Below the pieces are notes generated by a model, which saw nothing but the letters and a program-made list of their open reading frames with translations, searched no databases and was not told the DNA's origin. From an uncultured Candidatus Poseidoniales archaeon (GTDB lineage: Archaea > Thermoplasmatota > Poseidoniia > Poseidoniales > Thalassarchaeaceae): a stretch of DNA of 28,948 bases. This document shows, in pieces, positions 18,745-22,012 of this stretch (position 1 is the stretch's first letter; the number at the start of each line of letters is the position of its first letter). The stretch covers positions 1 to 28,948 of the forward strand of contig CAXFCF010000001.1 in assembly GCA_964000875.1 (NCBI GenBank), given 5' to 3'. The translations under genes were made by a program, and so were the position numbers.

Positions 18745-18761
18745 TTATAATGTGGTGTTTT
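18745..18761 (-). promoter_or_regulatory. BRE/TATA promoter of crtI (AAAACACCACATTATAA)
   Basis: TTATAA ends 24 nt before ATG 18721, consistent with a leaderless archaeal transcript. 16/17 identical to the photolyase promoter. Confidence 0.75.
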
Positions 18762-18770
18762 TCATCTGCT

Positions 18771-20000
18771 TCAAACATTGGACGGAAGTTGCAGACCTGT
18801 TCGAAATTCCTCAAGATAGGGTTTCATGGATTCTATCAGTCTGACATCTGGATGAGTCCTGATGACCAATCCATCCATGTACATTAGCGCCCTGATAATT
18901 GGAAACCCCTCCTCTCCGAAGTCAGCCTTAGCAATCTCGACGGCAGCTCGAACCGTCTTCATCATGGTCTGTGTCAAGCTCTGTTCACCAATCGGTTTGG
19001 TTTCGAAATCTGTGTAAATCTTGGACATCTCATCGCGGAATCGTCGAACCCGTTTGGGTTTCAGTTCAACGTCTGACATACCCATCAGAGCGTCGTAAGC
19101 GTGCTCCTTTTCTCTCTTAGCTAGATGATCGAAGAAGTTGAATAAAGCCAGACTGATATGCCTCGGTGAATGACATATCGCGCCGTTGTCGATGAATACG
19201 AAATTCCCTTCGTTATCTATTATGCAATTACCTGGATGTAGGTCACCATGGAAGGTACCAACTCCAAACATGTATGCTCCGTGGATTCTGAACAGTTCCA
19301 ACAGCGTATCCATGGATAGTGTTCCTTCATCGATGCCCGCTTCCAGAGAGCAACCATCGATGTATTCGGATACTAGGATGTGTTCGTTGGATAGATTCTT
19401 CCAATATTGTGGGAATCTCAAAAGAGGCATGGGGAAATCTTCCTTGAGTGAGGCTTGGATTGAAGCCAAATCATCGGCTCCTCGAATCTCATTACGTAAG
19501 TCAAGTTCACGAGTAGTGTAATCCTCGACATGGTTCAGAAGCGCTACTGGATTGCCAACTCTACGCAATTTCGGTACAAATAACATCGTCACGCGCAACC
19601 AGCGACGCATACGCTTGACATCGGTGTTGAACTTCTTGGAAGATTTCTCCTTGACGACTTTGATTACCACTTCTTCACCGGATTTCAAACGAGCTCTGTG
19701 GACTTGACCGATGGAAGCGGCTGCAAGTGGTTTTTCATCGATAGATTCGAAGGAATCCATGAAGCCATCAGGGGCGAATCTTTCGATGTTATCGAAGACA
19801 TCTTCGGGTGGTATTTCAGCAGCGTGTTGGTAGAGGGATTGCAATTGCTGGCACTTTTCATCACTCAAGATATCTGAACGCAAGGCAAAGATTTGTGTCA
19901 GTTTGACTGCGAGCAATCCTTTCTTTTGTATCCAATCAAGATTCGCAGGTTTGTCACTTAGTATCTGACGAATGAACCTGATGAATGTGAAAAGACGCAA
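18771..20000 (-). CDS. ABC1/UbiB/AarF atypical protein kinase
   Basis: KxGQ-equivalent AVKLTQ, PLAAASIGQVHRA, VVIKV, ELDLRNE, FHGDLHPGN and FIDNG. TTG start 1 nt after the trmB stop. Confidence 0.9.
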   Translation of the reverse strand: MRLFTFIRFIRQILSDKPANLDWIQKKGLLAVKLTQIFALRSDILSDEKCQQLQSLYQHAAEIPPEDVFDNIERFAPDGFMDSFESIDEKPLAAASIGQVHRARLKSGEEVVIKVVKEKSSKKFNTDVKRMRRWLRVTMLFVPKLRRVGNPVALLNHVEDYTTRELDLRNEIRGADDLASIQASLKEDFPMPLLRFPQYWKNLSNEHILVSEYIDGCSLEAGIDEGTLSMDTLLELFRIHGAYMFGVGTFHGDLHPGNCIIDNEGNFVFIDNGAICHSPRHISLALFNFFDHLAKREKEHAYDALMGMSDVELKPKRVRRFRDEMSKIYTDFETKPIGEQSLTQTMMKTVRAAVEIAKADFGEEGFPIIRALMYMDGLVIRTHPDVRLIESMKPYLEEFRTGLQLPSNV

Positions 20001-20001
20001 T

Positions 20002-21396
20002 TCAGTCCCTCATCTCAATCAAATCATCTGTCTTGAAAATCAGGTGGTATTTGCTGAACTCATCGCCATCTCCATCTTCTCTTCTGATAACCACAGCACC
20101 ATCTTCCGGATATCGGGTGTGCAGTGCTCCCTCGATGATTCCATCATCTAACTCGGTAAGTGGGAGTGAACCTTCTACACCTTCGTCCTGGTGATTCAAA
20201 GTAACCTTCACATGGAAGGTCGGATCCAAGTCATAGTCGAGTTCTCCCAAACCAGCATGTTCCCACCAATCCATCATCTCATTGAGGAACTCGACATGAT
20301 CCTCGATGGTGCGTAGGCTGAATGCCAACTCTCTTCCGATTCTGTTGCCGACTTGACGTAGTATCGCTCCAATGTCAATTCCCAAGGCTTTGAGGTTCTC
20401 CAACTTCCCCCCTTGTAGTATCAGTCTCGCCTCATTCAACTCAGAACCAGACGCGAGGAATGAATTGAGGTCGAATGGGGTGTCCTCGTCAGGTAAGTCT
20501 CCCGAGAATCCCAGTGCTGTCCTGAAAGTCTCTAGAAATGATCCTTCACCAACGGTCAATCTTAGTGGGTCTACGATTTTTTCTTCAGTGAACCTCTTCC
20601 TTGCCACTTCGAAATCGATTGCCTCGTCCCAAATTGACTCAACAAGATCGATTTGGGTAGCTGCAAAAGATTCGGATTCAACGACCAAGGCAGCATCTTC
20701 TCGCCCTCTTCCTACGGGATTTTCTTCAACCTGTAGGAATTGAATCACTTCAGATCCATCCTTCAGGACACCAAGGGAACTGAGGTCGTCAGAGTGGCGT
20801 ATTTTGATTGAGTCATCCAACTCTTCGAAGAACCGGATCGTTCTGCGATCCAATTGTGAAAGAACATTTACGATGACTCCTTTCTGTGCGGCTGAGTTAA
20901 CTTCGGCCAATGCATCTGAGCGGCAAAGGTGTAGGATTCCGAATTGTCCAAGTAGCAAGAACATCCGTTCATCAGCCTCGCTCGCCATCTCTTTGATTCG
21001 CTTGAAGATGTGAACTCGTTCTTTCAGAACTGCGAACCGAGGTTCATCAACGGTCGTGGTTTTGTTTGCAGAACGTCTTGAAGAGCCACCCTTTTCTAGG
21101 TCAGCAAAGCCCTCCTCGGTTCTCTTCAACCTCGTTTTTTGCATATCGATAAGTTTCCTGACGACGGAGTCGACGGGTTCGCAACTGAACTTCATCGGCC
21201 TTTGAGCCGTGGCCAGAACTATTCCGATCTCTTGAAGTCTGGACAGTGAATTGTATGCGTCCAGTCTTGTGGTTCCGAGTTCCTTAGCCAACTCACTGGC
21301 TCTCATACTCTCACTGGTGGATAGGACGATGACAGCGTCAGCCTCCCTCTCACTGAGGTCAGCGTCAAGCAAAACTTGCTTCCAAGACATTGTCAT
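20002..21396 (-). CDS. TrmB-family transcriptional regulator with extra C-terminal V4R-like domain
   Basis: N-terminal wHTH (LSEREADAV...ASELAKELG...AYNSLSRLQEIGIV), TrmB effector-type middle domain and ~200-aa C-terminal extension. ATGA overlap with the upstream peroxiredoxin gene. Confidence 0.8.
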   Translation of the reverse strand: MTMSWKQVLLDADLSEREADAVIVLSTSESMRASELAKELGTTRLDAYNSLSRLQEIGIVLATAQRPMKFSCEPVDSVVRKLIDMQKTRLKRTEEGFADLEKGGSSRRSANKTTTVDEPRFAVLKERVHIFKRIKEMASEADERMFLLLGQFGILHLCRSDALAEVNSAAQKGVIVNVLSQLDRRTIRFFEELDDSIKIRHSDDLSSLGVLKDGSEVIQFLQVEENPVGRGREDAALVVESESFAATQIDLVESIWDEAIDFEVARKRFTEEKIVDPLRLTVGEGSFLETFRTALGFSGDLPDEDTPFDLNSFLASGSELNEARLILQGGKLENLKALGIDIGAILRQVGNRIGRELAFSLRTIEDHVEFLNEMMDWWEHAGLGELDYDLDPTFHVKVTLNHQDEGVEGSLPLTELDDGIIEGALHTRYPEDGAVVIRREDGDGDEFSKYHLIFKTDDLIEMRD

Positions 21397-21863
21397 CCAT
21401 CCCTTGTAATTTCACTCAATGAAGTGAGTATTCTTGCTACATGCCTACGAGGTCGGAACAACCAATCGTAGCAGTGATGAATGGTGCGATCGGGTCCGAT
21501 TACGAACGATGATTTGGCGGGGAAGCGCCCAAGGAAAATTGGTACCCCATAAGAGTCCGCGACCACCCTTTCTTCATCGGATAACAGTGGAAAAGGTAGA
21601 TCCAATCGCTGTTTGAATTCTGCATGGTCTCGAACCGAGTCTTGGCTTATTCCGACAATTTCAACTGGAGGGCTGAGGGATTGGAACAGGTCGTACTGTT
21701 CCTTGAAGTTCAAGCATCCTCTTTTGCAGGTAGGAGAGCCATCCTTGGCATAGAAGAATAGAACCTTCCAAGATCCATCTAGATCGGATAGGCTGAATGA
21801 TCCACCTTCAGAGGTCTGCAAGGTGAAGTCAGGAGCTTTCTGGCCAATCAATGACTTAGACAT
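21393..21863 (-). CDS. bcp: Peroxiredoxin, Bcp/PrxQ-like (atypical active site)
   Basis: IGQKAPDFTL, VLFFYAKDGSPTC, IVGISQDS...H..F...LDLPFPLLSD and SFVIGPD. Confidence 0.8.
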   Translation of the reverse strand: MSKSLIGQKAPDFTLQTSEGGSFSLSDLDGSWKVLFFYAKDGSPTCKRGCLNFKEQYDLFQSLSPPVEIVGISQDSVRDHAEFKQRLDLPFPLLSDEERVVADSYGVPIFLGRFPAKSSFVIGPDRTIHHCYDWLFRPRRHVARILTSLSEITRDG

Positions 21864-21995
21864 AGGAACACCTGTTTCACACCGCTGAAAGACTCAGCCA
21901 AATAGTCAACGAAGCAGTCGTGACCCAGTCTCTATGAAAGTCCCATCGGTATAGTGACAAGACTCCATTTTCTGCAATTTAGCGCATGTTGCTTG

Positions 21996-22012
21996 AAAAC
22001 ACCGCATTATAA
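21996..22012 (+). promoter_or_regulatory. BRE/TATA promoter of photolyase operon (AAAACACCGCATTATAA)
   Basis: TTATAA ends 24 nt before ATG 22036, which supports 22036 as the true start. Confidence 0.75.

What the first reader, a model, noticed from the sequence alone, without database searches (positions are those of the whole stretch)
18745..22012. Near-identical 17-nt promoter shared by crtI and the photolyase operon at identical spacing
Seen: AAAACACCACATTATAA (minus strand, 18761-18745) and AAAACACCGCATTATAA (plus, 21996-22012) match at 16/17, and each TATA ends exactly 24 nt before an ATG. The crtB promoter (26026-26010) shares only the A-run/CA and TTATA. crtI has its own promoter in a 49-nt gap despite following abc1 in the same orientation. 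Inference: identity between BRE and TATA goes beyond a generic promoter and marks an operator or a dedicated TFB/TBP-specific light regulon. TrmB proteins are known to bind sites overlapping BRE/TATA.
Basis: partly seen in the sequence, partly recalled or inferred. Interest (0 to 1): 0.75.

Follow-up and report, generated by a model that had tools for sequence, protein, structure and literature searches.

The report
Shared photoprotection promoter box in MGII archaea
The near-identical 17-mers before crtI and the photolyase gene are real and belong to a special promoter type (an AAACA box six bases before a TTATA box, then 23 bases to the ATG). This type drives the light-protection genes of many uncultured Marine Group II archaea, but the sequence between box and TATA is not a conserved operator.

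Summary
The two sites match 16/17, each TATAA ends 24 nt before an ATG, and no other copy with up to 2 mismatches exists in the 1.56-Mb MAG, a Marine Group II (Poseidoniales) genome.

The 17-mer is not the generic promoter. tRNA promoters here read CCG-N6-TTAAG, and TTATAA is the rarest hexamer in the genome.

Both sites belong to a conserved promoter class: R-A-A-C-R, 5 nt, T[TCG]ATA[AT], about 23 nt, ATG (probably leaderless). It heads nearly every transcription unit of a cluster syntenic in 74 MGII species: phr operon, ribA-ahpC-trmB operon, abc1, crtI and crtB. Some rhodopsin genes carry it too.

A matrix built only from other species ranks crtB, phr and crtI as the top three of 3.1 million positions in this genome (23-26 bits; next 15).

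The spacer (CCRCA) carries almost no information across species, so "operator between BRE and TATA" holds only for its first bases. The extra identity (about 0.1% of class pairs reach 16/17) recurs within genomes and fits promoter copying inside the cluster.

The most likely reader of the box is the cluster-encoded TrmB-PLD-V4R regulator, at modest confidence. A basal-factor (BRE variant) reading is not excluded. No TSS data were obtainable.

The parts
18745..18761 (-). crtI promoter 17-mer: box AAACA at 18760-18756, free spacer CCACA, TATA box TTATAA at 18750-18745; 23 nt to the ATG at 18721
   Evidence: 23.0 bits with a matrix built from other species
21996..22012 (+). phr-operon promoter 17-mer: box AAACA at 21997-22001, spacer CCGCA, TATA box TTATAA at 22007-22012; 23 nt to the ATG at 22036
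   Evidence: 24.0 bits. Orthologous phr/NUDIX promoters carry the box in 50 of 51 cases
26010..26026 (-). crtB promoter, third member of the class: AAAAACAGTCATTTATAT, box at 26025-26021, TTATA at 26015-26011; 23 nt to the ATG at 25987
   Evidence: 25.8 bits, best hit in the genome. G026's phr-operon promoter AAACAGTCCTTTATA is 14/15 identical
17099..18721 (-). crtI (phytoene desaturase family), first gene of crtI-orf187-ABA4
   Evidence: TIGR02734, 485 bits
15924..17038 (-). orf187 (no family) and an ABA4-like gene, downstream of crtI on the same strand
18771..20000 (-). ABC1 atypical kinase-like gene, last gene of ahpC-trmB-abc1. In many other species it has its own boxed promoter
   Evidence: 28 of 28 ABC1 promoters with the box
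20002..21396 (-). TrmB-family regulator with three domains: wHTH, PLD-like domain as in TrmB/TrmBL2, and a C-terminal V4R/MsvR-like domain. Candidate reader of the box
21393..21863 (-). PrxQ/AhpC-type peroxiredoxin; its stop overlaps the trmB start by 4 nt
21864..22035 (.). Divergent ahpC<->phr intergenic region (172 nt). It corresponds to the 97-108-nt phr<->ribA region of other MGII, which holds two mirror-image boxed promoters. Here only the phr side keeps the box. The ahpC side has a CGTTGACTATTT stretch (about 21898-21912, minus strand) resembling the boxless tRNA-type promoters
   Evidence: the reading of the ahpC promoter is inference
22036..24969 (+). phr (class II-type photolyase, TIGR00591) and the SRPBCC-TIGR01777 oxidoreductase 9 nt downstream: one operon
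24977..25987 (-). crtB (phytoene synthase, second copy in the genome), probable start at 25987

Best explanation
The two 17-mers are two of three copies (with crtB) of a dedicated promoter type. It reads R-A-A-C-R (here AAACA), five nearly free bases, a strong TATA box (TTATAA/TTATAT), and about 23 nt to the ATG, so that transcription should start at or next to the start codon (leaderless; inferred). This type heads almost every transcription unit of a photoprotection/carotenoid gene cluster conserved across Marine Group II archaea: phr operon, ribA-ahpC-trmB(-abc1) operon, abc1, crtI and crtB; some rhodopsin genes carry it too. In this genome it occurs nowhere else. The box sits at a fixed one-base register next to the TATA box, where a factor can touch TFB/TBP. 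The most likely reader (inferred, not shown) is the TrmB-PLD-V4R regulator encoded inside the cluster. That regulator would switch the set on or off in response to a hydrophobic ligand or photo-oxidative signal. It would be made from a boxless promoter before ahpC and, in most species, also from the boxed ribA promoter (autoregulation). The extra identity of the crtI and phr promoters in the spacer comes from copying of a promoter module within the cluster in the lineage of this MAG, not from a second operator.
For: Class and conservation. (1) The logo of 96 non-redundant promoters from 74 species gives 0.97, 1.18, 1.72, 1.66 and 0.97 bits at -10 to -6, and under 0.3 bits at -5, -3, -2 and -1. 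(2) A-C-R at -8 to -6 is present in 121 of 128 TATA-anchored promoters of first genes (phr 41/42, NUDIX 9/9, ribA 30/30, ABC1 28/28, crtB 5/5, crtI 8/14). It is present in 3 of 49 at internal genes (ahpC 3/40, trmB 0/4, SRPBCC 0/4, ABA4 0/1). Specificity in this genome. (3) The matrix built without G000 gives crtB 25.8, phr 24.0, crtI 23.0 bits and then 15.0, over 3.1 million positions. (4) AAAC-N6-TTATA occurs 5 times, 3 of them these promoters. Not generic. (5) The 28 tRNA genes have CCG-N6-TTAAG-type promoters. (6) 44 other AT-box leaderless promoters show no AAAC at -39. (7) TTATAA is the most under-represented hexamer, 18 observed against 674 expected. (8) TFB2 promoters have a strong TATA without the box. 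Link to the regulator. (9) ahpC-trmB lies in the cluster in 74 of 74 loci. (10) Orthologues at 53% identity or more occur only in genomes that have the cluster. (11) AAC-N6-TTATA-N22-24-ATG gives 68 sites against 38 controls in the 16 genomes with the orthologue, and 15 against 116 in the 25 without. (12) In G026 (with the orthologue), 11 of 14 examined sites start real genes. In G030, G025 and G027 (without it), at most 3 of 14 do. (13) crtI promoters in the three genomes that have crtI but no orthologue lack the box. Promoter copying. (14) 16/17 pairs are 3 of 93 within genomes against 5 of 5144 between genomes. They fall in two lineages with different partners: phr-crtI in L163, ribA-crtI in L181 and L189. 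Field data. (15) In MGIIb, phytoene desaturase is among the top 5% of transcripts and is depleted after 24 h in the dark (PMC9723583).
Against: No transcription start site or binding data exist; the one RNA run found holds a single 151-nt contig inside phr. The box is asymmetric and single promoters have no inverted partner, unlike the palindromic sites known for TrmB, TrmBL1 or OxsR. A one-base-exact register relative to TATA across 70+ species is what a core-promoter element read by TFB would show. In family f3 the same architecture also precedes MMPL transporters, PKD and fasciclin surface proteins, a cupredoxin, a Rieske protein and, in G023, TBP, so the set is wider than 'light'. The contrasts between genomes with and without the regulator are few once phylogeny is counted (G000 within its genus, G030 within f3, G018/G025/G027). 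G021 has the regulator but no strict site; its contig ends just upstream of ahpC. Proteorhodopsin transcripts did not fall in the dark in the published MGIIb data.
Confidence: 0.5

Rival explanations
1. The AAACA box is a variant B-recognition element read directly by a basal factor (one of the two TFBs). The class is then simply the strong consensus promoter of highly expressed, mostly membrane or surface genes, with no dedicated regulator. In this MAG it stands out only because the island keeps the promoters of the lineage it came from.
For: The register to TATA is exact. The tRNA promoters carry a different conserved triplet (CCG) at the same position, -9 to -7 from the TATA core, as if that position were the BRE. 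In f3 the relaxed pattern gives 158 sites against 29 controls, including rhodopsin, cupredoxin, MMPL, PKD and fasciclin genes. The cluster is patchy and missing from 19-20 of 20 genomes of the same genus, in line with the published history of horizontal transfer of MGII photolyase (PMC6461757).
Against: All 41 genomes have the same two TFB genes, yet genomes without the cluster show the pattern at or below control level: 15 against 116 (strict) and 120 against 121 (relaxed). G030, of family f3 but without the cluster, has at most 1 of 6 sites before a real gene. Boxless TATA promoters sit inside the same cluster before ahpC (3 of 40 with the box). Strong TFB2 promoters lack the box.
Confidence: 0.27
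2. One reading: the shared CACCRCA between the A-run and TATA is itself an operator, bound by a repressor that overlaps BRE/TATA and controls crtI and phr together in this lineage.
For: 16/17 identity is about 0.1% likely for two class members. The nearest relative with both promoters (L163) also has a 16/17 pair, with both promoters carrying T where G000 has C at position 8. ACACCGC occurs a third time at about 21878-21884 near the ahpC start. A distant clade has AAAACACCGCC at phr.
Against: Spacer positions carry under 0.3 bits across species. Other genomes have different spacers at phr, ribA, abc1 and crtI. Within-genome spacer similarity equals between-genome similarity (2.10 against 2.10 of 6). 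L164, an equally close relative, has 12/17. The shared C/T change is at the one spacer position where either pyrimidine is allowed, so it is expected by chance about one time in four. crtB lacks the core. ACACCRCA is not enriched in the genome: 72 sites against about 95 that I estimate from length and composition. Part of the third copy's neighbourhood is explained as the reverse complement of a Shine-Dalgarno-like AGGTG.
Confidence: 0.1
3. Chance resemblance of two ordinary promoters.
For: A-rich plus TATA elements are common to archaeal promoters. The identical spacing is generic for leaderless genes.
Against: The 17-mer is unique in 3.1 Mb. The genome's generic promoters look different. The matrix from other species picks exactly these sites. 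The architecture is conserved in 74 species.
Confidence: 0.03

Closest known systems
GvpE-responsive UAS of haloarchaeal gas-vesicle promoters PA/PD (PMC2241852)
   Same: A short conserved element (YGAAAYGA there, RAACR here) abuts the BRE/TATA region. The spacing to the core promoter is strict. It is shared by two closely spaced divergent promoters (35 nt between BREs there; 17-18 nt between the two boxes here, read by eye in six lineages). It is absent from the rest of the genome.
   Different: The GvpE UAS is 20 nt, made of two 8-nt parts; the box here is about 5-7 nt. GvpE is a leucine-zipper-type activator unrelated to TrmB. Activation is proven there and not tested here.
TrmB-family regulators and their sites: P. 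furiosus TrmB/TrmBL1 (TGM) from my own knowledge; H. volcanii OxsR (PMC9426492)
   Same: A TrmB-family protein is encoded next to its presumed targets. Sites lie upstream of or overlapping BRE/TATA, and position decides between activation and repression. OxsR controls an oxidative-stress regulon; here the regulator is co-transcribed with a peroxiredoxin.
   Different: Known sites are (semi)palindromic (TGM; CGGnCGnGCG for OxsR), whereas the box here is asymmetric. The protein here carries an additional V4R domain and lacks conserved cysteines.
MsvR, the wHTH + V4R redox regulator of methanogens (PMC3729527)
   Same: The C-terminal 110 residues match the MsvR model (NF053755, E 9.6e-9). A DNA-binding domain is joined to a V4R domain, and the gene neighbourhood is tied to oxidative stress.
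   Different: The score is far below the family cut-off (35 against 220 bits). The N-terminal half is TrmB/TrmBL2-like with a PLD-like domain. No invariant cysteines, so thiol-based redox sensing is unlikely.
Light regulons of carotenoid and photolyase genes: bacterial CarH/LitR and the Halobacterium Bat regulon (own knowledge, not tested here)
   Same: Carotenoid synthesis, photolyase and (for Bat) rhodopsin genes are placed under one shared cis-element.
   Different: The regulator families are unrelated (MerR-B12; GAF-PAS-HTH). The motifs, and their positions relative to the promoter, differ.

Membership tests
Archaeal core promoter (TATA box + BRE) of a leaderless gene | AT-rich TATA box centred about 26-27 nt upstream of the transcription start | tested here: met
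   TTATAA occupies -29 to -24 from the A of the ATG at crtI and phr. The same distance is seen at other genes. That the start coincides with the ATG is inferred, not measured.
Archaeal core promoter (TATA box + BRE) of a leaderless gene | Purine-rich BRE directly abutting the TATA box (2-3 nt from it) | tested here: not met
   The A-run/AAAC ends 7 nt before TTATA, and the abutting bases are C-rich and variable. Comparison with canonical BRE spacing rests on my own knowledge.
Archaeal core promoter (TATA box + BRE) of a leaderless gene | Mapped transcription start site | not testable with these tools
   Only one RNA run holds the locus, as a 151-nt contig inside phr.
TrmB-type operator (such as TGM or the OxsR motif) | Dyad symmetry of the site | tested here: not met
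   RAACR is asymmetric. No conserved inverted partner is seen at crtI, abc1 or crtB promoters. The inverted pair in the phr<->ribA region is just two divergent promoters (read by eye).
TrmB-type operator (such as TGM or the OxsR motif) | Cognate TrmB-family protein encoded nearby and co-occurring with the sites | tested here: met
   PF01978 wHTH; Foldseek to TrmBL2 5bpd at E 2e-12 and to TrmB 3qph; in the cluster in 74 of 74 loci; site counts track the orthologue.
TrmB-type operator (such as TGM or the OxsR motif) | Demonstrated binding | not testable with these tools
   Needs EMSA, DAP-seq or ChIP.
Activator UAS abutting the core promoter (GvpE/Ptr2 type) | Conserved element just upstream of BRE/TATA at fixed distance | tested here: met
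   The box is always 5 nt (RAACR) or 6 nt (AAAC) before T[TCG]ATA in 121 of 128 first-gene promoters.
Activator UAS abutting the core promoter (GvpE/Ptr2 type) | Restricted to a regulon rather than genome-wide | tested here: met
   In G000 the three top matrix hits are the three cluster promoters, with an 8-bit gap to the next. In family f3 the set is larger, about 10-20 strict sites per genome.
Activator UAS abutting the core promoter (GvpE/Ptr2 type) | Dependence of transcription on the activator | not testable with these tools
   No culture or genetic system exists for MGII. The indirect evidence is depletion of MGIIb phytoene desaturase transcripts in the dark (PMC9723583).
MsvR family (for the regulator) | Score above the NCBIfam cut-off, and V4R cysteines | tested here: not met
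   35.3 bits against a cut-off of 220, covering the C-terminal domain only. No invariant Cys among 19 orthologues.

The most novel reading that the evidence does not exclude
The RAACR box and the TrmB-PLD-V4R protein together form an order-wide switch. Through it, uncultured Marine Group II archaea would turn on photolyase, carotenoid/retinal synthesis, riboflavin synthesis, a peroxiredoxin and (in some families) rhodopsin and surface or transport proteins in response to light or photo-oxidative stress. The regulator would act as a class-II-like activator docked one fixed step upstream of TFB/TBP. This would be the first cis-regulatory code and the first sensory regulator defined for this abundant ocean lineage.
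Probability: 0.35. Interest if true: 0.75.

Novelty: new variant of a known kind. Interest (0 to 1): 0.6.

Why it matters
Marine Group II archaea are among the most abundant heterotrophs of the surface ocean, are uncultured, and nothing is known about how they regulate genes. A short, sharply defined promoter box would give three things. First, a way to predict the light/photoprotection regulon from sequence in any MGII genome. Second, a concrete candidate regulator (TrmB-PLD-V4R) to express and test. Third, a prediction that existing light/dark metatranscriptomes can check. It also shows that these genomes purge TATA-like words so strongly that the few consensus TATA boxes left are informative by themselves.

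Tried and rejected
1. Generic promoter: rejected by the tRNA promoters, ATG-anchored logos and hexamer statistics.

2. Dedicated TFB: every genome of the order has two TFB genes whether or not it has the cluster. An apparent AAAC-TTTATA site before TFB2 in G000 and G026 is out of register and not conserved; TFB2 promoters read CCACAGG-TTTAWATA with a leader of about 45 nt.

3. Palindromic operator: I looked for inverted partners of the box at crtI and phr (TGTTT at 12 nt and TGTT at 7 nt). The spacing is inconsistent, so this was dropped.

4. Third copy of ACACCGC near ahpC: too short to count. The neighbouring AACACC is the reverse complement of an AGGTG Shine-Dalgarno-like site.

5. Covariation of position 8 between G000 and L163: not significant, because either pyrimidine is allowed at that position.

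6. Transcription start mapping from public runs: 6 DNA runs and 1 RNA run hold the locus. The RNA run gives one 151-nt contig in phr, with no 5' ends.

7. A script to measure the spacing of the mirror boxes in all 58 divergent regions failed because of a wrong pattern (first part). The 17-18 nt figure rests on six lineages read by eye.

8. Further class members in G000: an ABC-transporter ATPase (11.9 bits) and an unknown 186-aa ORF with AAAACACC but no TATA are too weak.

9. My crude gene-start calls (first ATG of long ORFs) are noisy, so genome-wide logos are only indicative.
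Full report
**What is there.** The two 17-mers are as described. AAAACACCACATTATAA lies on the minus strand at 18761-18745 and AAAACACCGCATTATAA on the plus strand at 21996-22012. They match 16/17, and each ends 24 nt before the A of an ATG: 18721 for crtI and 22036 for the photolyase.

The genes around them are as follows.
- Minus strand: ahpC/prxQ-like peroxiredoxin (21393-21863), a TrmB-family regulator (20002-21396), an ABC1 kinase-like gene (18771-20000), crtI (17099-18721), an unknown 187-aa ORF and an ABA4-like gene.
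- Plus strand: phr (22036-23586) and an SRPBCC-TIGR01777 oxidoreductase.
- Minus strand again: crtB (24977 to about 25987).

The 49-nt ABC1-crtI gap holds the whole crtI promoter.

**The genome.** The window is an entire contig of a 1.56-Mb, 375-contig, 84%-complete MAG with 51% G+C. Titles of related records place it in Marine Group II / Candidatus Poseidoniales, near Thalassarchaeaceae.

**More than chance, and not the generic promoter.**
- With up to two mismatches the 17-mer occurs only at these two places in the assembly.
- TATA-like words are strongly purged. TTATAA is the single most under-represented hexamer, 18 occurrences on both strands against 674 expected.
- The 28 tRNA genes define the ordinary promoter of this organism: a CCG or TCGG element, six bases, then TTAAG/TTAAA/TTGAA. 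It has neither AAAC nor TTATA.
- 44 other candidate leaderless promoters with an all-A/T hexamer at about -29 to -24 show no AAAC at -39.
- The identical spacing is generic. TTATA followed by 22-25 nt and an ATG is seen at several unrelated genes, as expected for leaderless transcripts.

**What the 17-mer is made of.** AAAC-N6-TTATA occurs five times in the genome. Three of these are the crtI, phr and crtB promoters, all beginning GA(A)AAACA.

crtI orthologues in other families of the order (60-68% protein identity) carry AAAC, six variable and mostly C-rich bases, TTATA[TA], and 23 nt to the ATG.

A search with the regulator protein returned 74 MGII loci with one conserved layout: [SRPBCC-oxidoreductase <- phr <- (NUDIX)] <-> [ribA -> ahpC -> trmB -> (abc1) -> crtI]. 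crtB or rhodopsin sometimes lies nearby.

The divergent phr<->ribA spacer is mostly 90-108 nt, with a mode of 97-98. It holds two mirror-image promoters of the same build. Their AAAC boxes are 17-18 nt apart in the six lineages I read by eye.

From 96 non-redundant promoters of phr/NUDIX, ribA, abc1, crtI and crtB, the information lies in three places:
- R-A-A-C-R at -10 to -6 from the TTATA start (0.97, 1.18, 1.72, 1.66 and 0.97 bits);
- a pyrimidine at -4 (0.70 bits);
- T[TC]ATA[AT] itself.

Positions -5, -3, -2 and -1 are nearly free.

The box is present in 121 of 128 TATA-anchored promoters of first genes. It is present in only 3 of 49 TATA-like contexts before internal genes. That includes 3 of 40 before ahpC, which often has its own boxless TTAAA promoter.

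Rhodopsin promoters in family f3 have the same build, [AT][AT]AC-A...TTATA.

**Specificity in this genome.** A log-odds matrix built only from the other species was run over all 3.1 million positions of G000. It gives crtB 25.8 bits, phr 24.0, crtI 23.0, and then nothing above 15.0. None of the weaker hits has a convincing gene start.

For crtB the architecture points to the ATG at 25987 rather than the first in-frame ATG at 26005, which lies only 5 nt after the TATA box.

**Why crtI and phr are more alike than class members need to be.** Non-orthologous class promoters share about 10.2 of 17 positions, whether they come from one genome or from two. Their spacers are equally alike in both cases (2.10 of 6). 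The spacer is therefore not read by a factor that co-evolves with it.

Pairs at 16/17 or more make up 0.10% of between-genome pairs but 3 of 93 within-genome pairs. These are phr-crtI in L163, the closest relative with both promoters (crtI 84% identical), and ribA-crtI in L181 and L189.

crtI is the gene whose position in the cluster varies most. The simplest reading is that crtI repeatedly gained a promoter by copying a neighbouring one. The G000/L163 lineage then inherited such a pair.

Both promoters carry C in G000 and T in L163 at one position. That position accepts either pyrimidine, so the agreement is not significant. Another equally close relative (L164) has only 12/17.

**Who reads the box.** All 41 genomes of the order carry the same two TFB genes. 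A light-specific TFB is therefore unlikely.

TFB2 promoters have a strong TATA (TTTAWATA) without the box in register. The box is therefore not simply part of a strong promoter.

The only transcription factor in the cluster has three parts:
- a TrmB wHTH;
- a coiled-coil and PLD-like domain, as in TrmBL2 and TrmB (Foldseek E 2e-12 to 5bpd; also 3qph and 2f5t; model pLDDT 75);
- a C-terminal domain matching the V4R part of MsvR (E 9.6e-9, far below the family cut-off).

It has no invariant cysteines among 19 orthologues. Orthologues at 53% identity or more exist only in genomes that have the cluster. The others have a 33-37% paralogue.

The strict pattern AAC-N6-TTATA-N22-24-ATG was compared with the pattern read backwards as a control.

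| Genomes | Sites | Controls |
|---|---|---|
| 16 with the orthologue | 68 | 38 |
| 25 without | 15 | 116 |

With a relaxed TATA, the 13 f3 genomes that have the orthologue give 158 against 29, and the 25 genomes without give 120 against 121.

In G026, 11 of 14 examined sites start real genes. In the three genomes outside the window's own family f1 that lack the orthologue (G030 of f3; G025 and G027 of f2), at most 3 of 14 do.

The three genomes with crtI but no orthologue lack the box at crtI.

These contrasts are few once relatedness is counted, but they all point the same way.

**Arguments against the TrmB reading.**
- The box is asymmetric.
- Its one-base-exact register is what a core-promoter element would show.
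- The tRNA promoters have a different conserved triplet at the very same position.
- In f3 the class also precedes MMPL transporters, PKD and fasciclin proteins, a cupredoxin, a Rieske protein and a DUF523-DUF1722 (YbgA-like) gene; in G023 (family f1) it also precedes TBP.

I therefore rate the regulator assignment at about one half. A BRE variant read by a basal factor gets about a quarter.

**Context from the literature.** Rinke et al. report that all MGII genera with proteorhodopsin also encode photolyase, and that both have a patchy history of horizontal transfer (PMC6461757).

This fits my finding that phr is missing from 20 of 20, and crtI from 19 of 20, other genomes of the window's genus. 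No rhodopsin was found in G000, though the genome is only 84% complete.

Damashek et al. found phytoene desaturase among the top 5% of MGIIb transcripts. It was depleted after 24 h of darkness, whereas proteorhodopsin was not (PMC9723583). This is consistent with a strong, light-responsive crtI promoter.

Functional analogues are the GvpE UAS next to BRE in divergent haloarchaeal promoters (PMC2241852), the TrmB-family oxidative-stress regulator OxsR (PMC9426492) and MsvR (PMC3729527).

I found no paper describing an MGII promoter motif or this regulator.

**Verdict.** It is wrong in detail: the conserved part is AAACA plus TATA, not the CACCRCA spacer; the spacing is generic; and a special TFB is unlikely. 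The mechanism (activator, repressor or BRE variant) remains inferred.

Noticed in passing
whole genome G000 (window = contig C1): TATA-like hexamers are the most depleted words of the genome: TTATAA 0.027, TTTAAA 0.030 and TTTATA 0.039 of expectation. All-A/T hexamers together number 9,386 against 43,136 expected. This looks like strong selection against spurious TATA boxes.
   Followed up: partly
G000 tRNA genes, e.g. tRNA-Gly at window 15842 (plus strand): tRNA promoters share CCG/TCGG - about 6 nt - TTAAG/TTAAA/TTGAA. The conserved triplet sits at the same distance from the TATA core as the AAC of the light class, which hints at two BRE-like flavours in MGII.
   Followed up: partly
window 20002-21396 (minus strand): The regulator is a three-domain fusion: TrmB wHTH, a PLD-like domain and an MsvR-like V4R domain. 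It has no invariant cysteine, is always preceded by a peroxiredoxin, and is conserved in 74 MGII species. Its ligand or signal is unknown.
   Followed up: partly
window 25985-26005 (minus strand): The crtB start is probably the ATG at 25987 (336 aa), 23 nt after TTATA, and not the first in-frame ATG at 26005 (342 aa), which lies 5 nt after the TATA box.
   Followed up: partly
window 15924-26026 against relatives: The window's own genus is otherwise 'dark': 0 of 20 genomes have phr, 1 of 20 has crtI and 0 of 20 have rhodopsin. G000 has phr, crtI and a second crtB but no detectable rhodopsin, and it has lost ribA and NUDIX from the cluster. This looks like a photoprotection island without phototrophy, subject to 84% completeness.
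   Followed up: partly
L249:701-1657 (G026:C1, about 111700-112657, minus strand): A DUF523 (2-thiouracil desulfurase-like) + DUF1722 gene carries the same boxed promoter in G026. From my own knowledge, its family is the YbgA type that sits next to photolyase in bacteria.
   Followed up: no
G000:C233, and L142-L161: The second TFB gene of all MGII families has a conserved promoter, CCACAGG-TTTAWATA, followed by a leader of about 45 nt ending in a GAGGTTG Shine-Dalgarno-like site. This is one of the few leadered genes seen.
   Followed up: partly
window 22016-22132: One DNA contig of run X2 joins 22016 to 22132, skipping 115 nt across the phr start. Only 21 nt lie on the short side, at 92% likeness. 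It is probably another strain or organism.
   Followed up: no
window 22256-22406: A metatranscriptome run (X7) holds a 151-nt contig identical to part of phr. This is compatible with expression in situ, but DNA carry-over is not excluded.
   Followed up: no
window 5530-10773 (minus strand): A 1747-aa ORF and a neighbouring 1007-aa Lhr-type DEAD helicase were not examined further.
   Followed up: no
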